A DNA stretch of 63,519 nt, the filler included, from Collodictyon triciliatum (lineage: Eukaryota), in assembly GCA_043381765.1 (NCBI GenBank). It is 11 parts of 11 records of this genome, joined end to end, with 100 filler letters (N's around TTAATTAATTAA, not from the genome) between each part and the next. Parts side by side here need not be neighbours in the genome. Positions count along the whole stretch, not along the records: positions 27,308 to 32,455 come from JBHJMP010005432.1; 10 more parts are not named here. The stretch is one strand, 5' to 3'. The notes beneath the pieces were generated by a model. The model had not been told where the DNA came from. It saw nothing but the letters and a program-made list of their open reading frames with translations, and searched no databases. This document shows positions 18,078 to 36,820 of this stretch, in pieces (within the stretch, counting starts at the first letter, position 1; each line of letters starts with the position of its first letter). Both the position numbers and the translations under genes were made by a program.

Positions 18078-21000
18078 ATGTCAGTACCACCAAAGGTCTC
18101 CTATTTTTATGACGGAGGTTTCTTACTTTCCATATTTTTTTCTTTATCTTTCATTTTCACATCACTCTATCCTCTTGGAATATATTGATCGATGATCTTT
18201 ATAGACAGATATATTAGTCAAGCTTGGTTGCGAAGGCTTATATCTATTATAATTTTTTTATTACATTTAATTTCTACAGTGGGTTACTATATTTACCTGT
18301 CGATGACTCTGATTAGATATGAACTTGATGAGCTTTCAAGGAAGACACACTGATTGTATGCCGCTGATTTCTAATTTAAAATGCAGATATAACCGGATAC
18401 TACTATGGGCGATATCATCCGATGAAACCCATCCGTTTGACCTTGGCCCATCACCTAATACTCAGTTACGGACTAGCCAGAAAGATGGAGATTTATGTAA
18501 TCAAAACAGCCTAGATTTCCTAATATTCTTGAACTGGTTGTATTCTAAAAATGAAATAAAGATGTTTTGGATCAATTTTAAAGTTTCTTGCCATGTAATG
18601 CATATTTTATACATACCTCTATGCTTATTTCACTCGAACCAACCACCAGCATTAGTGCCAGGAAATCCGAAAAACTATGCTCGGCTATGGCTTTCATTCA
18701 TTCATTCATTCATTTATTTTCACCTACATAGCGCCCTCACAAAGCATCGTCAGAAGAGTTTTGTCAGTTTCATTCGGCTGACTATATCGATTTCCTCAGA
18801 AGAGTGTCTCCTTCAAAGATTACAGACTTTCAAGACCAGCTCTCGCGGTGTAGGCAACCAAATTCTCATAAAACATAATAGCATTTGTCTCCTCCAAGAA
18901 ATCAACACATGGGGAATGTATGCTTTTACTGAAAAATTAATCCAAAAGACAATCTTGGAGATGACTGCCCTGTGTTTGATGGCCTTTATGATTACTGTAG
19001 ACTTTACACAGGAGGTTCAATCGGTAAGTGAGAATTTATTAGGTGAATGTAGTATATATAGGTTATACATTAATAATAATAATAATAATAATAANNNNNN
19101 NNNNNNNNNNNNNNNNNNNNNNNNNNNNNNNNNNNNNNNNNNNNNNNNNNNNNNNNNNNNNNNNNNNNNNNNNNNNNNNNNNNNNNNNNNNNNNNNNNNN
19201 NNNNNNNNNNNNNNTTTTTTTTAGTGTAACTAACAAAATGTATTTGAAGATGGGGCTATCAAGTTGAATCAGAAAGACTGTGACATTGCAATCAATTGGT
19301 CGGGTGGGCTTCATCATGCAAAAAAATGCGAAGCATCAGGGTTTTGCTACATTAATGATATCGTGCTAGCCATACTGGAGTTGTTGAAGTATGAATTTTA
19401 TAGATAAAATTACATGCAAACATTATATTTGTATTGCTTTCGATGATAAAACGAATGTAATTGCTCTTTGTATTTTCTTGCAAAGATATCACGCCAGGGT
19501 CCTTTATGTTGACATTGATATCCATCATGGAGATGGAGTCGAGGAGGCATTTTATGTCACTGATAGGGTGATGACTGTCTCCTTTCATAAGTATGGTGAT
19601 TCTTTCTTCCCCGGTACAGGCGATCTACGGGTATGTCTAATTGTATTCTCTTGTAGGGAGATTTCATGTTTGTACACCAAACATTTCATTTTAAATTTAC
19701 AAAATATCACACAAGTTAATCAAAAAAATCAAATAAACAAACACAACATGACAAGGATATCGGAACACAAAATGGAAAGCACTATTCGGTTAATGTTCCA
19801 CTAAAGAGCGGCATCGATGATAAAACATTCATCCAAATATTTAAGCCGGTGAATTTCACCTTAGTCTGTTAATTTTCAAACTATTTTCTATAAACAATCC
19901 GCATGGGACATGTTTTTCCCCCCTTCATTCGATTCAAATATCCGCATGAGACATGTTGATTATATGTAGTAATATGACATGATATCGAATCTCTATTTTT
20001 ATTTGCATGGAAAATAAATTCAAATGACTAACCTATAACCGAAAACCTCACATCTTAATTATTATTTTTTACTTAGGTAATGAATAAAGTGATGGAGACC
20101 TACAGACCTGGCGCAGTTGTGCTTCAATGTGGAGCAGATTCTCTTAGTGGTGACAGACTTGGATGTTTTAATTTATCTTTAAAAGGTACCCTTTTCCTCT
20201 TTTTTAACATTAAGTGAGGGTAACTCCAGCTTTAGATGATAACTCAATGTTACCTTCAACAATAAGGGCATGCCGAATGCGTGAAAATTATGAAATCTTA
20301 TCAAGTTCCCATGCTCGTTCTCGGAGGCGGAGGGTACCTATACACAATTCCGATCAGGATTTAATAAAGATTCATGATAAAAAAATTTTTCTGTAAAGTC
20401 TGAATTTCTATTCCATACTACTACAGTTACAATGTCAGAAATGTGGCCCGCTGCTGGACTTACGAAACAGCAGTCCTTTTGGATACCGAAGTATCTGATA
20501 GTATGTATTTGTTTGAGATACATTCCTTTCACTGGGTCGTTATAAAACAACCGAAATTGTAGTGCTCCCTGTGAACGATTATTGGGACTACTACAGCCCT
20601 GATTTTCAGTTGCATATAACTCCATCAAATATGGATAACCTTAATACCAAAGAATTCATAGATAAAATGAAGTGAGTTTGTGTTTTGTTTCATTCCCCAT
20701 CTCGTATTGTTCTGTTGCGGTATAATCAGGGATCTGATAAAAAAAATTTTTATCATCATGCAGGATAAGAGTAATGGAAAATCTTCGTAATATTGAGTTT
20801 GCCCCTAGCGTCCAAATGCAGGAGGTGCATACTCATAAACGCGCATAAAAGCTTCATATTTGAAATCACATATAGCTATTTGGCAATTTTTATTTTATTC
20901 CTTAGCTTTATTGAATCCTACTATTTCACGAAAGGTCCCGCCTGATATGCATTACCGAGAGGATAACGAAGACGAGCATGACCCAGAAATCAGAATATTG

Positions 21001-21196
21001 CGTAACCTTCTTTTCATAGTCATTAATTGAAGTAAAGATTATGTTTTCCGAATTAAATGAAAGCATTTTCAGTCATGTTTATCAGACAGATTAATATAGG
21101 TTGAAGTAAAAATTGATATTATAAATTCACCTCATTACAGAATCTGACAAAGATAAAAGAATCTCGCGTGATGGAGCTATGTATGATTCAGACTAA
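18078..21196 (+). CDS. Class I histone deacetylase (RPD3/HDAC1-3 type), complete multi-exon gene
   Basis: [138 protein letters not shown]. Stop TAA at 21194-21196. Confidence 0.97.
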
Positions 21197-21234
21197 AGCC
21201 AATTTTTTTTCTTCACAGCGATTCTTTTCAATCT

Positions 21235-21760
21235 TTATATCACCTTCTTTGAAGCGAATAAATCTGAAAATCCCTTGCCATTGAGGCTCACTCGAAGACA
21301 TTGCATCAGAGTCTTGTTTCCTTCATTAAACGCAAGCAGAGAAGGTACACACCTTATTACCCAACTGAGGTGGCTCTCGTTTAAACTGCTGTACCTTAAC
21401 CTAGACTTAGTGAGTGTGTCTTTAATGATTGGATGTGATGTTAATACATATATTCGGAACGGTGGTGTATGTTCTGATTCGAATAAGGATTTCACCTACG
21501 ATTATTCGTATTTTCCACATATACAATATTTCTTTGAATTTTAGAACTAAACAATCTCGCAACCATGGGGATATACAGCCTTATTCCACACATATCCCCT
21601 TCCAAAAGCGGACGAATATTCCAACACACGTGGCGGAACACAACATATCCCAAAACAGAACAGGTGGAATTCATCCATATTTGGATGATTTGTTGATTCA
21701 ACGAAAGACGCGTTTCGATAACGCATCATCAATGCTGTTCCTGATCGCGGGTTTTGATCG
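21235..21760 (-). CDS. 3' exons of an unidentified gene, possibly C2-domain-like
   Basis: Spliceable segments YRNASFVESTNHPNMDEFHL, VKSLFESEHTPPFRIY and TLMQCLRVSLNGKGFSDLFASKKVI*. Only loose resemblance to copine-type C2 strands. Confidence 0.3.
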
Positions 21761-22159
21761 AATACATCCGATCCAGAAGCTGTGCGGTTGGGCGATGGAC
21801 TTTGGCGTAAGTGTTGTTTGCTGGACAGGATAACGTGCCTGTCAACTATGCAATGCCCGTGATATTTTCAAGAAACAAATTAACCAAGAACAAAACAAAA
21901 AACAAAAAACAAAAAACAAAAAACAAAAAACAAAAAACAAAAAAACAAAAAAACAAAANNNNNNNNNNNNNNNNNNNNNNNNNNNNNNNNNNNNNNNNNN
22001 NNTTAATTAATTAANNNNNNNNNNNNNNNNNNNNNNNNNNNNNNNNNNNNNNNNNNNNTTTTTTTTGAGAAAGCCGAACAAAGGATCCATGGGTAATGAT
22101 TTAGAGAATGTTTTTTCGTGGGCACAGTTAAAGCTACAAAATCGTGTCGATTAAACCTT

Positions 22160-25029: not shown

Positions 25030-27062
25030 TTGTGACATAGTGTCGATTGAAAGTGTGTAGACAAAGGAGGGAGGAGCGAGGTGGAGAGAGAAGGCCTTTC
25101 CTGATTCATAGTTGGATACTTGTGATTTGTATGATGCCCACGGTATTTGAGGGTACCGTTGCAGTGAGTAGGATTGTGCTCTTTTTAATATTTTTTTAAA
25201 AAAAAATTCCAGTCAATAGAGGAAAGAAGGACTTTAAGATGTCATTCTCTTTTTGTCAAACTTATCGATGTTGGATCTGGTAAGCTGGCCATAGGTATGC
25301 CCATGGTCCATGTAGTATCCCGGAACATACCCTAGAGTTGTTAATTATACATGTAAATGGATATAGTGCCGATTGATTGTCATTTACAGCATAAATTATA
25401 CAAGAAAAAAAAGAAAAAAAAGAAAAAAAAGAAAAGAAAGAAAAGAAAGAAAAGAAAGAAAAGAAAGAAAAGAAAAGAAAGAAAAGAAAGAAAAGAAAAG
25501 AAAGAAAAGAAAGAAAAGAAAGAAAAGAAAGAAAAGAAAGAAAAGAAAGAAAAGAAAAGAAAGAAAAGAAAGAAAAGAAAAGAAAGAAAAGAAAGAAAAG
25601 AAAGAAAAGAAAGAAAAGAAAGAAAAGAAAAAAGAAAATAGTTGTAATCGAAGAGAATATTATTAGTATTATTATTAAAAAAAAAAAAAAAGGAGGAGAG
25701 GATAGAAAAATTCAATTTTGATACCGCTACAATACCTGTGTACCCTGGGAGATGGCTGGGATGGTGAGGTTCCAGGGGCTGATTCAACGAATGCGATGGG
25801 AGAGCCGGAGGCATGGACTGCGGTCGGCTTTCGTCACGGAAATCGATGGGTCTGTCGCCTCCTTGGCCATCATTGGACAGGGCATCCGCAAGCTCGCCTG
25901 TAGCGCCTCTAGACGGCACAAGGGTTGCCCCCACCTGATGGCTGTATCGCGAGACATTCCCGTAGGTCGATGCGAATATGTGCTGCTTGTGAGGGAGGAA
26001 TCCGGTGTATCCGGGCGGCGGGCGTAGCGGAGACGGGGATAGCTGCGACTGAGACAGCGGCGGGGTGGGCGGGCGATTGTGGCGAGGAGAGAGGGGAAGG
26101 GCCGATGTGGACGCGGGGCGCGGGCGGCCGTCGAGGCGGGCCTCTGTCAGCCCGGTGGATTTGCCGTAGGTCACTGCGTGGGTGAACTTGTTCCCGGGCC
26201 TGTACCCGCCATAGCCGAGGGTGCGGCGCGTGGGGCTGTAGGGCTGCCAGGTGGGGTCCTTCATGTCGAGGGTGGAGTAGTGGGGGTCGCGGCCGTCGTG
26301 AGGGAGCAGAGGGTCGTCGCCCGACGGGTGCGGCCTGTCCAGCGGGTGCGTCTCCGCGGCAGCCTGCGGCCCTGCGGCGTCGAGGGGGTTTGGCGACGGG
26401 CCCGCCGTCCCGTGCAAGGCGGCGTCCTGGGAGTATATGCGGCGGGTCATTTCGCCGTACGTCAGGCCCAAGGTGTGGGCCGTGCGGTGGATGTAGCCTG
26501 TGTAGCCGGGCTTCTGGTGGGGCTGGAACTGCTCCGGCAGCAGCAGCCCGTGCGCGGCCGGGTCGTCCGTGGGCTGCGGCCGGGACGTGCGGAAGGGGAC
26601 CGGCTGCGCATCCTCGTGCGCCCGCCTCTCGCGCGTCTCGCCTTCGCGCTGGTGCTGCGTGTGCAGTGAGCGCTGTTCCACGCGCAGGTCCCGCAGGCGC
26701 TCCTGCGTCTCCCGCCCGTACGTGCGTGCGTGGTCGTCCTTGGCCTGCCGGATGAACCCGGTGTATCCCGGCAGATGCTTGTGGAACTCGTGCCGGTTCA
26801 CCGGGTCGCCGCTCGCGCGCGGCTCGTCCGGGTCGTCGGGCCCCCTGACGTGGGTGTTGACGTCTGCATCGCGCCCCCCGTACGGCCACCGCCGGGCCTC
26901 AGACTGCGCCGCCACCCGCGTCATGTCCCCGTAGGACGACCCGAAGTGGTGCTGGCCGCCTGGGGTGAACCCCGTGTATCCCGGCGGGCGGTGGTCTTTG
27001 CTCTGCTCCACCTCCGGCTTCCAGTCCACCTGGTTGGGCCTGAAGATGGTTCTGTCCGGGAG
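25030..27062 (-). CDS. FAM166/CIMIP2-like ciliary microtubule inner protein (PGYTG repeats), 5' partial
   Basis: Six repeats of (P/L)GY(T/G)G(F/Y)x followed by (G/A)x(T/S)YG: PPGYTGFTPG, LPGYTGFIRQ, KPGYTGYIHR, LGYGGYRPG, PPGYTGFLPH and LPGYTG|YVPG..GHTYGQLT across the intron at ~25735-25334. 3' end uncertain. Confidence 0.75.
25402..25638. repeat. (AAAG/AAAAG)n intronic purine repeat
   Basis: Read directly. Confidence 0.9.
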
Positions 27063-27079
27063 CTGTGTGGCGGCCGTGG

Positions 27080-27132
<53 letters not shown>

Positions 27133-27727
27133 TGTGTGTGTGTGTGTGTGTGTGTGGGGGGTGCCGACATACTCGTTCTATATCGCGTGTGGGTTTGTGT
27201 GTGTGGGNNNNNNNNNNNNNNNNNNNNNNNNNNNNNNNNNNNNNNNNNNNNTTAATTAATTAANNNNNNNNNNNNNNNNNNNNNNNNNNNNNNNNNNNNN
27301 NNNNNNNCCTACTGAAAAGACCCTAATACGGTCTGGAAGGAGGTGAGTCAACCATGCAGAGAAGTCCTCTTTGCACTCGACCTAGTGCTTATCAAACGAA
27401 CCTCACATCTCTTTTCACCATCCTTATCGACACCTTGCGCCATCAAAGCAGTATTCCCCCTCCTCCATCCAATCAATATCACCCGTCCCTTTTTTTTCTT
27501 TCTCATACTCGCGGGACACTATCACGCGTCCCCAAAAGAAATCCATGCGCCTCTTATCAAGCCTCAAGGACCTCTCTTTTCCCTTTTTTCTTTTATCTTT
27601 ATCCCTGTTTTTCTTTTTTCTATCTCCCATACATCCCCACCTACTTTGGAACTACTTGCCTGATGGCTGAATGAAAGATTGTTGAGGCGGGCTCAACAGC
27701 CAAGATTTTTAGAATAAAAAAAAACGT

Positions 27728-30700
27728 TCAAATTAATAGACATCCCTCCTGAGAACACGTGAACGTGTGTACTGTAGCAGTTTCATCTTCCTTTCCTGTA
27801 GGCCTGATTTCTGGAGGATATTTTGGCTCATTTCTGGCACTCATGCAACGGATACTAGGAGGTCGAGGCGATTCGATAGCATTTCCGGAGTCAACGGTAT
27901 TAGGAATAGTAAAATCTTGTATTGCGCACGCATCCTACATATGAAAAAGTATCAAGCATTAAAACAAATGCAACATTATATGATAAGTTTTCTCTTTTAA
28001 CCTGTCTCATCGCTGGTGGATGCAGGAAAAGGTTGTCCGGGACATCCTGAAAATCTTGAACTTTATCCGCAGACGATTCTTTCTCTTCATAGATGGTAAA
28101 TGCTTGAATCATCTCAGCAGCATTATTTAATTCTTGTTTAGAGATTGAATAAGTCGCGTGGACATCTGGTTCGCCAAGCTTGGATATTGTGTTTCCATCA
28201 AGCTTCAGAGCAATCACTTTCTCAAGCAATCTTTTTGACGATGGGTCTTTCTTTTTTTGCAAATGAGTCACCAACGCCATATGACTCATCTCCATCACTT
28301 TCTTCTTTGGAACTTTGAAGTTGCTGCCAGTGTCTTCCTGCTTTGACAAATCAACAAATGCAGAAATGTCATCTGGCGTTATGTGATACATATCAACCAT
28401 CGTCCTTTCATCTAGTTTGTCTTGAATTTCTTCGAATCTTTCCCAGCCCATTTGGTTTGAAATTGTATCGCTCAATTTTAAAAAGCCATGCTCTCGAAGC
28501 CACTCCACAAATTCACCCCTGTACATATCAGTCAAAGGAGCATATTTAATTGGAAGCAAATTGCCCATCACCTTTTGAGAAAGCTTCTGTTCACCTGATT
28601 TCAACTCATCCAAGTATACACAAACTTGATTTAAAGAAGGTCGGAGCTTGTAGTTTTGCCTCCAGCACGCTCTGATAAGATAATTAAGTTCACAAGTGGC
28701 CTCTTTCGGTATTTCAGGTCGTAATCCTCTGATGACAAAGCCTTGTGTCTCTTTTTCATGCAAAAAAGGATCGATGCCAGAAAACATGTACCAAACGAGC
28801 ATTCCCAAAGCATACACATTGCTTGGTTCTCCTCGATGTCCAATATTGACTTTTTCTTCACCACACATTTCTGGATTATCATCATAATGAGGCTTACAGG
28901 CAACTTCATGTATTTCCGGTGCTTGCCAGTTGGCAGTTCCACCTTGTTTGTCCTCACCAAATCTCGTCGGTAAGTTTGACCCGACTTTATCTACTTCACG
29001 AAGGCTCACTATCCCAAAATCCACAATTTTTACTGTTTCACTCACAACCATAACGTTATCGGCCTTCAAATCTTCGTGGCACAAGTTTTTGGAATGCATG
29101 AAAATAAGACCGTGACACAGTTGCTTTGTGTAAGAAATAATTTGAGGTAATGTTAGCTTAATCTTTTTCTTTTCCAACATAGCTTTCAACGAAAAGCCTA
29201 CATTCTCCATAACCATGAAGAAATCGTCGTCTTTGCGATACACACCGAATAATTTTACTATATTTTCACATTCAGAGCATTCATTTAGAGACTTGCTTTC
29301 AAAAATAAGAGATTGAATCACCTCACTGACAGTCTGCTCCTTGGTCTTCTGAATAGTTTGGATTTTCACCACAGCTTTCTTTTCCTCGATAATTTGAGTT
29401 GTATACACTCGTCCAAATGAACCCTTAGCGAGATACTCGTCTAACTCAACCTCTTTTCTCATCCATAAATCTTTCACTCTGGTAAGTTCTTCATCAATTG
29501 AATCCAGCTTCAATTCTTCGAGCGTAACTTTGAATTCTTCCTTTCTCTTTCTTATTTCAGACTTCATCGACATACCTAAGGCACAAAATCATTAATCAAA
29601 TACATTATAAATGATTATACATTATATTTCAATTATATATTACCTTGATTCGTATAGACATGCCCTTTTTCAAAAATCTGGTAACTCAGCTTGTGTTCAT
29701 TCGTACATGTCTTGAGTTCTGATTTGTCTATATTTCTTGATGTTCGAATATTTCCATTCATTTTGTCTAGCTTGCATTCATAGCATTCAAATTGACAGGA
29801 TTCAACAAAATTTGGTCGAATAGCTGATATCTGTTTGGAAAAAAACGATACCACATCAAAGATTTTCACAGAATTTTGGCTTGAACCATGTTCCACATTG
29901 TATCTTCGAACAACAACAGAAATTTTGTCCGCATGAATACGACAAAGGACCATAAACTCGTTCCCAGAAACCAAATAATTCTCCTTTGTTTCTGCGTTAA
30001 AATCAACATTCACATGTATGAGAGCTGTGTCTTTGAAAAAATCATCTTCATTCTGAACTCCAGCTTGTTCCTTGTTTGTCAGACGAAGCGCTTGAATAAT
30101 GACGTTGCTTTTATCGGAGAGTTGGATTTCGCCGTTGGTCATTATTTCTACAAGCATTTCTCCGACACAATGTGTCTCTGGTTTTTCATTCCATAACGCC
30201 TTGATGTTTTCGCAATCCTCCATCAGTGAGGGAAAGGCAATGCATTCTCTGTTGTACTTTATTCCAAGACCGAAATGGTCAAATATTGTAAGAATTGTAT
30301 TGAATACATGTTCATCTAGGTCTGTATTCAATTCTTGTTTGATTCGGTTTTTTAGCTTGCTCAACAAAATGATGCCATTTGAATTCCTACCGATGCCTTT
30401 GAAACTGAAGACACAGCGGAAAATGTTGATGAGAAAGAGCGGGTCTAAAAAGATACGATCTCTAGCGCTCGTAATATTTGAGTACCAAATGATAGAGCCA
30501 AGGTCGTGGAGGAATTTGAGAGCACTATCACACTGATTTTCATCCATTTTGAGGGGAGCTCTGACAAATTCGTATGTGTCTTGGATACTCTCGTACTTTT
30601 TGGATTGTCCTTTTAACGCTAAGTGCCTCTTCAGTTCAATATATGACTTCGGAACATCTTTGTTCATGTTATCAAGCGTCATCATTCCCTCATATATCAC

Positions 30701-32368
30701 TCTTTTCAATTCTGATACATTTGTACCGCTTTTGTTGCTTACTTTCAAATCTGTATCGACGAAGATGTGGTGGGCTTTTTCATCCAGTTTCCGCTCATTT
30801 TCTTTTTTGATTCTTTCAATTTCTATCAGCATCTCCTTGCTATAAGTTTGATTTTCACAATCTTGATGAGTCCCAGCAATTATGATTTTTGAGCCAGGTG
30901 CAAAGTCATCAAGCATTTTGACCCAGCGGCTGAGGTTGTTCTTCTCCTTGCCTTGGTCGAGTCTATACAGGATTAAAACGAGGGCGCCTGATGACAAAAA
31001 GAACGGATGTGTCACTTGAAACTCCTCTTGTCCTCCAAAATCCCATATTTGAAGAGAGATGGGCACCTGTCCACTCTCTATTATGTCAACATCAAGAATA
31101 TCCAAGCTTACATGCTCGATTCCATTGGTTGCAATCCTTTCCCTGCCTGTTTCACTTTGGAATTCAGAAGATTTTTGGATGATAGACCTTGACAGCGTTG
31201 TTTTTCCCGCCTCGCCTTCTCCGAGTAATAGGAGTCTTCCTTGGGTCCATTTTTCAACTCCATGTATTAAAGAAGCTAGGAAATCAAAAACTGCTTCTGG
31301 GCCCCTCTCCATCACATTTTTAGGGACATTTTCAATTGGATTTCCGTAGATGATAAGCCCGCTTCGCAGACTCTGAATCGATCCGAGGAGTGAAGATATC
31401 TCCTTTATCTGCACAGTCAAGTAAATTAAATATTTAGAGAACAGTACTCAGAATAATACAACATCAAAGTCTATTTCATGCTTCACCTTTTTTTTTTTTT
31501 TTTTTAGAAATTATGCCGATTACTTTTTACTTTAGGTTAAGTAAGATTCAAATCTTAAAATGAATATTAATGATAAAATTATAACATTAAGATTTCCGTT
31601 AAAATAACGTTTATTTTATTGCTTAGTTTCATCAGAGTTTATGAGTTTTTTTGTATTTAGTGTAGCACAAAAAAAATTTCTTTTCCCCTCAATTTACTTT
31701 ATAATGACAAAGTTGATTTGTTGGCATTGCAGGTGTTCCTTGGGATATGAGATGATTATACTTGCCTGATTCAGCGAAATATCGAGCTTCTCTAAGTTTG
31801 TGAGTCTGAATATGGGGTCTGGAACTGTGGTCAACTGTGACATACTTAACATTTAAGTGTCTGAGATTTGAAACAAGATGAAGATACTGTCAAAAGTGCG
31901 TGATGGTGGTTTTCAGAAAAGGCTACCTGACATTTCGAGATATTTAATCTTTTTATCGTGGTCATTTTTCCAAGCCACTCGGTGTATGCAGTAATCTGCA
32001 GAAAATGAACGTAAACATTTTCAAAATAACTCACGAAAACTAGAAAACGCCACATCAGGTCAATGTATTATTATTTGTCAAAATGATTATTACTTTCTTC
32101 AAGATTTAGGTCTAAGTTTTTTTTCGAGATTGGAGCCCTGACCTGGTTATTCGAAATATTCAGAGATTCGACCGAAAACATACCAGACAACCGCTCTGGG
32201 CATTCTGTAAACTAGGAAATCGTTCATTATAAACAGCAGGCTTCATCATTAATTTTATTTCATCTATTGAGTCTATAAAATTTTTTTATTATTAAAAACC
32301 TTGTTTTTGCTTATGTCTAATGACGTTAATCCTGTTAAGCTTGATATTTCGAGGGGAAGTAACGATAT
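27728..32368 (-). CDS. Roco protein: LRR - Roc GTPase - COR - TKL-type kinase - 2x SAM-like - CaaX (5' truncated)
   Basis: Exons 32368-32300, 32211-32143, 31995-31927 and 31834-31766 (LRRs), 31408-29644 (hinge GNPIENVPKNV; Roc GEGEAGKTT, IWDFGGQEEF, GTHQD; COR ALKFLHDLGSIIW..IFLDP), 29575-28002 (kinase KGSFGRVY, VVK, HEDLKADN, VDFG, GTANWQAPE) and 27934-27728 (ends EGCLLI*). Confidence 0.92.
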
Positions 32369-32555
32369 CTGTGATGCGTGTTGTAAGTAAAAATTGCATA
32401 ATCGTTTCTCGAAGAAATTTATGTGTTTGACAAAATCAGGTAGAAAATAAGGGCTNNNNNNNNNNNNNNNNNNNNNNNNNNNNNNNNNNNNNNNNNNNNT
32501 TAATTAATTAANNNNNNNNNNNNNNNNNNNNNNNNNNNNNNNNNNNNNNNNNNNN

Positions 32556-35275: not shown

Positions 35276-36820
35276 CTAGAGAATGACAACATCCTCGGTC
35301 CAGAGGCGGTCGCCGCCCACGAGGATGACGAAGGCAAGGAGGGTGCCGAGGAAGCCGGCGGGGATGGTGAGGACCCAGCTGCCAAAGATGCTGCGGAGGA
35401 CCTGGGTGTCGATGGAGGCGGAGCCGTGGATGAGGCCGACGCCGGTGATTGCGCCGACGATGGTGTGGGTGGTGGAGACGGGGATGCCGAGGAGGGTGGC
35501 GGCGGTGACGGTGAGGGCGGCGGCCAGGAGGGCGACAAAGCCCTTGGAGGGGGTCAGGCGGGTGACCTTCTCGCCGACGGTGGCGATGACGGCCTGGCCC
35601 ATGGTGCCGAGCCCCAGGACAATGGCCACGGACGCGACAACGGGGATGTACCAGTCCAGGTCGTCCCAGTAGGTGACGTCGTCGTTGTTGTAGACGGAGA
35701 GGATGCCGGCAAAGGGGCCCATGGCGTTGGCGACGTCGTTGGCCCCGTGCGAGAAGGCCACGAAGCAGGCGGTCAGGATCTGCAGGACGACAAACATGCG
35801 CTCCACGCCCTCGTACGGCACAAACGCCTCCGCCGTGGACAGCCGCTGGTTGCCGAACGCCCGCAGGCTCCGCGTCGTCGCGTCCACCGCGTCCAGCAGC
35901 GCCACGCCCAGCACTGCGTCGTGCAGCGCCGCGTCCGACACCGCGTCTGCCGCCCCGCGGTACGTCTCCTCCGACGACTGCAGCAGCGCCTTCATCTTGA
36001 GCCGCTGCGCCTGCCCCGGGTCCTTCAGCAGCAGCGGGTCGCTCGCATTGACGCCCCGCTCCGTCTCGATGCCGCTCGACAGCCGCGCAGACAGCGCAAT
36101 CAGCGCCTCGAAGAAGAAGCGGTCCAGCAGCACCCACACAACCACCCCGATGCCCAGCCCCGTGATGAAGATGGCCCACAGCGGGAAGTCGGCCGTGTCC
36201 ACCGTCTCGATGACCACAAAGACAATCAGCACAAAGACCGTGCCTCCAAAGAACGCCGGGATGAAGCGCCGCGTCTTGCTCTCTGCGTTCTCCGTGTCCG
36301 ACAGGATGTATGTGTCCAGCGGCCGCATGATGCCGTACCCGACAAGCGCCCCGAGCACGGGCGACGTCACCCATGACAGCACGATGAACCCGATTTGGTC
36401 CCACTTGGCTGCCCCGAAGCCCTGCCGTGTTTGACTTGCGGTTCATTCATGTCTTTTTTTCTTCTTTTTCCTTCTTTTTCTTCTTTTCTTCTTTTCTTCT
36501 TTTCTTCTTTTTTTTCTTTTTTTTTCTTTTTTCTTCTTTTTTCTTCTTTTTTCTTCTTTTTTCTTTTTCGTTTTGCTATGGGCAGCGTGAAGAGGGAAAG
36601 GTGGGTATGGATTTTGAATGTTGGACAGAGTCAGGGCAAGCGCGGTTTACCTCCGATGCGATACCGAAGGCAAGGATACCGCTCACGATGGTGTGTGTTG
36701 TGGAGACAGGCAGGCCGTAGTATGTGGCGAATAGGAGCCAAGCAGATGAGCCTGTTACAGGGAAAGACATATGTCAGTGGATTTTGAGTCCAAGGCAACG
36801 TAATTAGTTTATTTTTCCTT

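What the first reader, a model, noticed from the sequence alone, without database searches (positions are those of the whole stretch)
31766..32368. One-exon-one-LRR cassette array (four 69-nt phase-0 exons) in a Roco kinase: candidate diversifiable receptor
Seen: four consecutive minus-strand exons are each exactly 69 nt, all phase 0-0, and all cut at the same point of the 23-aa LRR. They are ISLLPLEISSLTGLTSLDISKNK (32368-32300), FTECPERLSGMFSVESLNISNNQ (32211-32143), ITAYTEWLGKMTTIKRLNISKCQ (31995-31927) and LTTVPDPIFRLTNLEKLDISLNQ (31834-31766). In contrast, Roc-COR (1765 nt) and the kinase (1574 nt) are single giant exons in a genome whose housekeeping genes have many short exons. Known: one-LRR-per-exon ROCO genes with exon shuffling are reported in the brown alga Ectocarpus as candidate pathogen receptors. 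Inference: any module can be skipped, duplicated or swapped without breaking frame, giving a variable sensor on a constant signalling chassis, possibly an immune or self/non-self system in this protist. More LRR exons probably lie beyond the contig end.
Basis: partly seen in the sequence, partly recalled or inferred. Interest (0 to 1): 0.78.

Follow-up and report, generated by a model that had tools for sequence, protein, structure and literature searches.

The report
Roco kinase gene with single-repeat exons
This is the 3' part of a protist gene for a leucine-rich-repeat GTPase-kinase (Roco family) in which each repeat sits on its own 69-base exon, a real and tidy layout, but nothing here shows it is used to generate receptor diversity.

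Summary
On the minus strand of one 5.1-kb scaffold (27308-32455) there are four 69-nt, phase-0 exons, each holding one 23-residue LRR cut at the same point. They are followed by a 1765-nt LRR+Roc+COR exon, a 1574-nt kinase exon and a 207-nt last exon: 3822 nt in frame, with the 5' end lost at the scaffold end. The fourth exon's donor is GC, not GT. One lake metatranscriptome contig joins 31766 to 31408 exactly, so that splice is real; the boundaries of exons 1-3 rest on sequence alone.

Roco membership is met (Roc, COR-A and kinase by Pfam). By Roc-COR the gene sits in a fully supported clade with 13 Diphylleia rotans transcripts (at most 39% identity), apart from LRRK2-type proteins. None of those 13 carries a kinase.

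The "diversifiable receptor" reading is not supported. The exons are 35-54% identical in DNA, their introns are unrelated, no relic LRR exons lie in the introns, and 0 of 10 isoform groups in the relatives differ by LRR modules.

Brown-alga ROCO genes already show one LRR per exon, but with 72 nt, phase 2 and no kinase, so this is an independent variant. Most likely it is an old tandem exon duplication in an intron-rich genome.

The parts
32369..32455 (-). partial intron upstream of the first visible LRR exon; the scaffold ends here, so the gene's 5' end is missing
   Evidence: Sequence read; N-linker positions; acceptor ...cacag at 32370-32369.
32300..32368 (-). LRR exon 1 of those visible: 69 nt, phase 0-0, AG..GT
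   Evidence: No RNA cover. The acceptor is inferred, because the frame is open upstream.
32143..32211 (-). LRR exon 2: 69 nt, phase 0-0, AG..GT; the acceptor's TAG is an in-frame stop just upstream
31927..31995 (-). LRR exon 3: 69 nt, phase 0-0; acceptor ttttctgcag, donor gtagcc
31766..31834 (-). LRR exon 4: 69 nt, phase 0-0; the donor is GC (cag|gcaagt)
   Evidence: An RNA contig joins 31766 to 31408 (table 5 and record 24).
31409..31765 (-). 357-nt GC-AG intron
   Evidence: Skipped by the RNA contig in X6. It is present, about 94% alike, in a DNA contig of X1 covering 31515-31754.
29644..31408 (-). 1765-nt exon: last (capping) LRR, Roc GTPase, COR-A and the rest of COR; ends in phase 1
   Evidence: Pfam Roc residues 71-196 and COR-A 266-388 of the 604-aa ORF. 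Best solved relative is LRRK2 residues 1320-1677. Boundaries.
29576..29643 (-). 68-nt GT-AG intron, phase 1
28002..29575 (-). 1574-nt exon: protein kinase domain, then about 195 residues with no family match
   Evidence: Pfam PK_Tyr_Ser-Thr 123.6 bits. The catalytic-loop Asp, DFG and beta-3 Lys are visible in the translation. The tail has 0 Pfam families.
27728..27934 (-). last exon (207 nt with the TGA stop), after a 67-nt GT-AG intron at 27935-28001
   Evidence: This splice is inferred from sequence only. Without it the frame would run 36 codons further to a stop.

Best explanation
This is the 3' 3.8 kb of coding sequence of a eukaryotic gene for an intracellular LRR-Roc-COR-kinase (Roco) signalling protein. 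It belongs to an unnamed freshwater protist whose nearest sampled relatives, for this protein, are all from Diphylleia rotans.

Shown: the domain order, the intact frame, the four symmetric single-LRR exons, and one splice junction.

Inferred mechanism, from what is established for LRRK2, Dictyostelium and bacterial Roco proteins: the LRR solenoid binds a partner or folds back on the enzyme core; the Roc GTPase, dimerised through COR, switches with GTP; and this sets the activity of the C-terminal kinase. The kinase keeps its catalytic Asp, DFG and beta-3 Lys, so it is probably active.

Inferred origin of the exon pattern: the LRR array grew by ancient tandem duplication of one exon-plus-intron unit in an intron-rich genome. 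Every repeat therefore kept an intron at the same place (phase 0, 69 nt). The copies have since diverged almost to saturation.

The odd part of the gene is rather the 3' end. Roc-COR and kinase have only 2 introns in 3.5 kb, which fits 3'-biased, cDNA-mediated intron loss or the late addition of an intron-poor kinase module. The modular exons allow exon skipping or duplication, but nothing here shows that either is used.
For: Gene model:
- Open and in frame over 7 exons, 3822 nt.
- Roc, COR-A and kinase all score above Pfam cut-offs.
- The spliced N-terminus matches Roco LRR arrays repeatedly.
- An RNA contig joins exon 4 to exon 5 across a GC-AG intron.

Age of the duplications:
- Exon pairs are 35-54% identical in DNA, with third positions at 13-48%.
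- All 6 intron pairs score within the range of their shuffles.
- Tandem Repeats Finder reports nothing in 31766-32368.

Intron-rich background:
- The HDAC gene on another scaffold is split into at least 5 collinear short pieces.

Family:
- An exhaustive HMMER search gave 6998 hits at E<=1e-3 but only 10 at E<=1e-30, the best at 39% identity.
- In a 59-row tree the window's Roc-COR falls in a clade with SH-aLRT 100 that holds it and 13 others, all D. rotans.
- Five LRRK2-type kinase Rocos form a separate clade with support 99.
- 0 of the 13 D. rotans relatives has a kinase.
Against: - Only one splice junction has RNA support, from a single depth-2 environmental contig.
- The 5' end and the total number of LRR exons are unknown.
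- No genome is held, so copy number, other 69-nt arrays and population variation could not be examined.
- Old divergence within one array does not exclude alternative splicing of these exons, or shuffling between paralogs that I cannot see.
- The relatives form a multi-copy family with variable LRR numbers and, in 5 of 13, STAND-like DUF4062/AAA tails. That looks like an innate-immune family and leaves the receptor idea open.
- The isoform test used short-read Trinity transcripts of another gene set, which is a weak test.
- 3'-biased intron loss is an inference from one gene.
Confidence: 0.7

Rival explanations
1. Diversifiable receptor. The symmetric single-LRR exons are cassettes that are alternatively spliced, duplicated or exchanged among paralogs. 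This would give a variable ligand-binding solenoid on a constant Roc-COR-kinase core, used for non-self or prey/pathogen recognition, as proposed for brown-alga ROCO genes.
For: - The exons are frame-neutral and register-neutral.
- In brown algae, ROCO genes with one LRR per exon show exon shuffling, splice variants with different LRR sets and four positively selected concave-face sites (PMC11378527 sections 11 and 15; PMC3341825 passages).
- The nearest relatives form a family of at least 13 members with very different LRR-region lengths, some fused to DUF4062/AAA modules.
Against: - There is no sign of recent duplication or exchange: 35-54% nt identity and unrelated introns.
- There are no relic non-coding LRR exons of the kind described for Ectocarpus.
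- 0 of 10 isoform groups in the D. rotans relatives gain or lose LRR units. The one internal 49-residue difference is non-LRR sequence that looks like a retained intron.
- No paralog lies in the window.
- The metagenome scan found only distant loci at 22-28% identity.
Confidence: 0.12
2. The one-LRR-per-exon layout was inherited from the same ancestor as the brown-alga ROCO layout, so the gene belongs to that shuffling type rather than being an independent case.
For: Both are LRR-Roc-COR genes with roughly 23-24-residue repeats, one per exon.
Against: - Exon length differs: 69 versus 72 nt.
- Phase differs: 0 versus 2.
- The cut point in the repeat differs: after N-x here, against the published exon consensus that ends NxLx.
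- The domain order differs: a kinase is present here and absent there.
- No brown-alga protein is among the 17 nearest proteins that I looked up by name.
Confidence: 0.05
3. Artefact or dead gene: a mis-assembled or chimeric scaffold, or a pseudogene whose exon-like pieces are not spliced as proposed.
For: - The assembly is very fragmented.
- Other scaffolds in the window mix AT-rich low-complexity DNA with GC-rich genes.
- Exons 1-3 have no RNA cover.
Against: - The frame is intact over 3822 nt with consensus splice sites.
- Exon GC is even at 0.35-0.44.
- An RNA contig bridges the LRR array and the Roc exon.
- Environmental RNA and DNA contigs lie collinear on the Roc-COR exon at 95-100% likeness (table 8).
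Confidence: 0.03

Closest known systems
Diphylleia rotans LRR-Roc-COR proteins (EukProt transcriptome, uncharacterised; 13 clusters, e.g. P0034, P0102, P0035, P0036, P0037)
   Same: - They share one fully supported Roc-COR clade with the window's gene (SH-aLRT 100).
- They have the same N-terminal order, LRR then Roc then COR, with regular 23-residue LRRs.
- The G-motif stretches around the P-loop and switch II are near-identical.
   Different: - Identity is only 26-39%.
- None has a kinase: the C-termini carry DUF4062 and/or AAA, PH, or nothing.
- Their gene structures are unknown, because only transcripts are available.
Brown-alga ROCO genes with shuffling LRR exons (Ectocarpus, Saccharina; PMC3341825, PMC11378527)
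   Same: - ROCO family, with the LRR array N-terminal to Roc-COR.
- Each LRR lies on its own exon of constant length, a multiple of three, so exons can be added or skipped in frame.
   Different: There:
- 72-nt exons in phase 2, with another cut point.
- No kinase.
- Exons and introns are highly similar within and between loci, with traceable recombination.
- Relic non-coding LRRs, pseudogenes, splice variants and positive selection are reported.

Here:
- 69 nt, phase 0, a kinase present, diverged exons, and none of those signs.
LRRK2/LRRK1 and Dictyostelium Roco kinases
   Same: - Same order: LRR, Roc, COR, kinase.
- LRRK2 is the best solved match to the Roc-COR exon (E 8e-20, residues 1320-1677).
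- The likely working principle is the same: a GTPase-controlled kinase.
   Different: - The Roc-COR lies outside the LRRK2-containing clade.
- The kinase shows no special likeness to LRRK kinases; the best solved matches are various tyrosine and TKL-type kinases at E 1e-20 to 1e-15.
- No ankyrin, armadillo or WD40 domain is seen in the part that is present; the 263-residue tail has no family.
- Dictyostelium proteins were not compared directly.
Other repeat genes with one LRR per exon (gonadotropin receptor genes, as discussed in PMC11378527 section 15)
   Same: Equal-sized, in-phase LRR exons, taken as relics of exon duplication from one prototype exon.
   Different: These are extracellular receptor LRRs in animals, in phase 2, unrelated in sequence and context. 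I know them only from that paper's discussion and did not examine them here.

Membership tests
ROCO proteins | Roc (Ras of complex) GTPase domain | tested here: met
   PF08477 scores 73.7 bits against a cut-off of 27, E 1.9e-20. The P-loop GxxxxGKT and the DxxGQ motif are visible in the translation.
ROCO proteins | COR domain directly after Roc | tested here: met
   COR-A (PF16095) scores 48.6 bits against a cut-off of 35.3, at residues 266-388 right after Roc. COR-B (PF25497) gave no hit, but the alignments to D. rotans relatives run on to query residues 441-464.
LRRK-type Roco kinases (LRRK1/2 clade) | Kinase domain C-terminal to COR | tested here: met
   PF07714 scores 123.6 bits and PF00069 120.4 bits on the next exon.
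LRRK-type Roco kinases (LRRK1/2 clade) | Roc-COR groups with LRRK proteins in a tree | tested here: not met
   In a 59-row IQ-TREE the window lies in the D. rotans clade (SH-aLRT 100). LRRK2 and four other kinase Rocos form their own clade with support 99.
Brown-alga type shuffling LRR-ROCO | Each LRR on a 72-nt exon in phase 2 | tested here: not met
   The exons here are 69 nt in phase 0, with a different cut point.
Brown-alga type shuffling LRR-ROCO | Recent exon duplication or exchange: high nucleotide identity of exons and flanking introns, and relic LRR exons | tested here: not met
   Exon identity is 35-54% and introns are like shuffles. TRF finds nothing. There are no relic motifs. Only this one locus could be tested.
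Brown-alga type shuffling LRR-ROCO | Splice variants with different LRR sets | not testable with these tools
   Exons 1-3 have no RNA cover. As a proxy, 0 of 10 isoform groups of D. rotans relatives vary by LRR units.
Brown-alga type shuffling LRR-ROCO | Positive selection on concave-face LRR positions | not testable with these tools
   No orthologs or close paralogs are available; the best relative is 39% identical.

The most novel reading that the evidence does not exclude
A lineage of deep-branching freshwater flagellates, related to or including Diphylleia, independently evolved a cassette-type ROCO receptor family. In it, arrays of frame-neutral 69-nt single-LRR exons are combined by splicing or exchanged among many paralogs, and are wired to interchangeable outputs (kinase, STAND-like ATPase, PH). 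That would be a second, convergent origin of the brown-alga style candidate immune repertoire, this time with a kinase read-out.
Probability: 0.1. Interest if true: 0.7.

Novelty: new variant of a known kind. Interest (0 to 1): 0.33.

Why it matters
ROCO genes with one LRR per exon have so far been described, in the literature I could search, only for brown algae, where they are candidate immune receptors.

A second case in an unrelated protist, with a different exon length, phase and cut point and with a kinase attached, would show that this gene layout arises repeatedly in the family.

It also gives a concrete target for long-read cDNA work in collodictyonid-like flagellates: does symmetric exon structure by itself lead to combinatorial receptors? 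As it stands, the locus is a well-formed but ordinary Roco kinase gene with an old repeat-exon structure.

Tried and rejected
- Own genome: none is held, so paralogs and other 69-nt arrays could not be counted. Only the window could be searched, and it has no second copy.
- Earlier findings of this scan: three look-ups, all empty.
- Metagenome contigs, scanned with a Roc-COR alignment: 485 relatives, the best 80 kept, all at 22-28% identity. They look like the distant Roco proteins already seen, so nothing extends or parallels this locus.
- Word-based protein searches: no relative closer than 37% identity in the near or longer length classes. The kinase exon found only remote kinases (best E 1.5e-8).
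- Sequencing runs: the 7 holders each had only 5-10% of the words. Of the four runs laid, no contig covered LRR exons 1-3, which says nothing about their expression.
- One X2 contig with a C4A4-type repeat end touches only 33 nt of intron 4 and is a chance AT-rich match (table 7).
- Rfam: no hits in the window.
- Pfam on single 23-residue exons: too short to score; 1 of 4 gave a sub-threshold LRR_6 hit.
- The kinase tail (195 + 68 residues): no Pfam family. The Atlas gave SAM-like leads at 0.80-0.85 only, below the level that means anything.
- Length differences among D. rotans isoforms: all are N- or C-terminal truncations, one 49-residue non-LRR insert or one 6-residue low-complexity indel.
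- Literature: no paper in the held library combines leucine-rich repeat, '69 bp', exon and 'phase 0'. A search for ROCO, protist, LRR, intron and Roc-COR returned only the two brown-alga papers and LRRK literature among the 12 of 28 listed.
- Supplements of the two brown-alga papers were not seen. They hold the exon tables and selection tests.

Full report
**What the window is.** The 63.5-kb window is not one stretch of chromosome. It is about eleven scaffolds of roughly 5.15 kb each (one of 6.2 kb, and the last, of about 10 kb, ending at the window's end), joined by N44-TTAATTAATTAA-N44 linkers. The finding lies in the scaffold 27308-32455. No whole genome is held for it, and earlier notes of this scan hold nothing on it.

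**The observation.** Reading the minus strand and splicing by script gives seven exons.
- Four 69-nt exons: 32368-32300, 32211-32143, 31995-31927 and 31834-31766.
- One 1765-nt exon: 31408-29644.
- One 1574-nt exon: 29575-28002.
- One 207-nt terminal exon, 27934-27728, ending in TGA.

Together they make 3822 nt in one open frame. The introns are 88, 147, 92, 357, 68 and 67 nt, and are AT-rich (GC 0.18-0.37, against 0.35-0.44 in the exons). All acceptors are AG.

Each small exon encodes one 23-residue LRR and ends two residues after the Asn/Cys of LxxLxLxxN. The large exon begins at the same register with a last, less regular repeat. The coordinates, lengths, phases and peptides in the finding are therefore exact.

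**More than chance.** In 31300-32455, over both strands and all frames, a loose LRR motif occurs seven times. The four hits free of nearby stop codons are the four exons. The spliced 125-residue N-terminus matches the LRR arrays of Roco proteins many times per protein. Single exons are too short for Pfam.

**RNA evidence.** Seven public runs, all environmental (mostly freshwater and lake, one subsurface), hold 5-10% of the scaffold's sampled words. I laid four of them. One 264-nt contig of the lake metatranscriptome X6 (depth 2) runs 31196-31408 and continues at 31766-31816, with one and zero mismatches. It skips exactly the 357-nt GC-AG intron. A DNA contig of X1 covers that intron (31515-31754, about 94% alike). 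So the exon 4 to exon 5 junction is real, and the LRR array and the Roc exon belong to one transcript. No contig lay on exons 1-3. Their boundaries remain inferences. The acceptor of exon 1 is the weakest, because the frame stays open up to the scaffold end.

**What the gene is.**
- Pfam finds Roc (73.7 bits) and COR-A (48.6 bits) on the 1765-nt exon and a protein kinase (123.6 bits) on the 1574-nt exon, all above the curated cut-offs.
- The translation shows the P-loop, DxxGQ, the kinase beta-3 Lys, a catalytic loop with its Asp, and DFG.
- The best solved relative of the Roc-COR exon is LRRK2 residues 1320-1677, followed by archaeal and bacterial Roco proteins and LRRK1.
- The kinase has no special affinity to LRRK kinases.
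- The last 263 residues match no family and give only weak SAM-like leads.
- The model has no start codon and ends upstream in an intron, so the 5' part, very probably with more LRR exons, is missing.

**Relatives.** An exhaustive HMMER search of 1.84 billion representatives gave 6998 hits at E<=1e-3 but only 10 at E<=1e-30. The best is 39% identical. I built a tree of 59 rows: the window, the top hits, and seven further named or kinase-bearing Roco proteins. It places the window in a clade with SH-aLRT 100 that holds 13 other proteins. All 13 are Diphylleia rotans transcripts. LRRK2 and four other kinase Rocos form a separate clade (support 99).

None of the 13 has a kinase. Their tails carry DUF4062 and/or AAA modules (5), a PH domain (5) or nothing (3). 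So the window's organism is probably a relative of Diphylleia, or that lineage itself. This was not tested with housekeeping genes. Within this family the LRR-Roc-COR part is the constant and the output domain varies.

**Tests of the 'diversifiable' reading.**
- Pairs among the four exons are 35-54% identical in DNA, with third positions at 13-48%. All six intron pairs score within their shuffles.
- Tandem Repeats Finder sees no repeat there.
- There are no relic LRR exons in the introns or on the other strand.
- There is no paralog elsewhere in the window.
- The metagenome scan returned only loci at 22-28% identity.
- Among ten D. rotans clusters with several Trinity isoforms, none differs by LRR units. 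The differences are terminal truncations, one 49-residue non-LRR insert that looks like a retained intron, and one 6-residue indel.

These are weak tests, made on one locus and on short-read transcripts of other genes. All of them point away from ongoing shuffling.

**Comparison with what is known.** In brown algae each ROCO LRR lies on a 72-nt exon in phase 2. Exons and introns are similar enough to trace recombination, and relic LRRs and pseudogenes occur. Splice variants with different LRR sets exist and four concave-face sites are under positive selection. The proteins have no kinase. (Sources: PMC3341825, passages; PMC11378527, abstract, sections 11 and 15, and passages. Supplements were not seen.) Here the exon length, phase, cut point and domain order all differ, and none of the dynamic signs is present. 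The likeness is in principle, not in descent.

The same paper notes that equal, in-phase LRR exons in gonadotropin receptor genes are read as relics of exon duplication. That is the simplest reading here too.

**The contrast in exon sizes.** A class I histone deacetylase gene on scaffold 16810-21958 is split so that five successive short ORF pieces, in changing frames, match Hist_deacetyl profile positions 29-59, 95-140, 129-190, 183-220 and 220-255 (5 of 10 pieces matched). So the genome is intron-rich, and 69-nt exons are near its normal grain. What stands out is the intron-poor 3' 3.5 kb. I take this as 3'-biased intron loss, or a late-joined kinase module. That is inference only.

**Verdict.** The Roco-kinase and one-LRR-per-exon statements are supported. 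The receptor-diversification idea is untested and has no positive sign. I rate it a new variant of a known kind, of moderate-to-low interest unless cDNA or a full genome shows that the cassettes are actually used.

Noticed in passing
window 1-63519 (linkers at e.g. 27208-27307 and 32456-32555): The window is a chain of about 11 separate scaffolds joined by N44-TTAATTAATTAA-N44 spacers. Most are about 5.15 kb, in roughly descending length. Neighbouring genes in the window are therefore not genomic neighbours.
   Followed up: yes
window 27308-27723: The stretch just downstream of the gene's stop codon has far higher depth in environmental runs than the gene itself: X1 DNA contigs at 53-56 against about 2, and an X4 RNA contig at 16. 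It may be a repeated or separately transcribed element. It has no other copy in the window and no Rfam hit.
   Followed up: partly
window 18732-20214 (+): A class I histone deacetylase gene is split into many short exons: five collinear Hist_deacetyl pieces, with further HDAC-like pieces seen by eye at 18380-18511 and 20266-20672.
   Followed up: partly
window 25383-27080 (-) and 35279-36442 (-): Two long GC-rich ORFs lie on scaffolds whose other half is AT-rich low-complexity DNA. The windows holding them are about 0.57 GC against about 0.35 elsewhere. One is a CMI2B-like ciliary protein with repeated PGYTGF motifs, the other a PHO4 phosphate transporter. This could be mixed composition, a foreign organism's DNA or chimeric scaffolds; it was not resolved.
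   Followed up: partly
window 50667-52369 (-): Kelch-repeat and U-box pieces lie on one scaffold, probably exons of one E3-ligase-like gene.
   Followed up: no
window 27731-28586 (-): The 263 residues after the kinase domain match no Pfam family. The language-model atlas gives only weak SAM-domain-like leads at 0.80-0.85.
   Followed up: partly
P0034, P0035, P0036, P0102, P0134 (Diphylleia rotans transcripts): Several relatives join LRR-Roc-COR to DUF4062 and/or AAA-type ATPase modules. Such a Roco-STAND-like fusion may deserve its own look as a candidate immune architecture.
   Followed up: no
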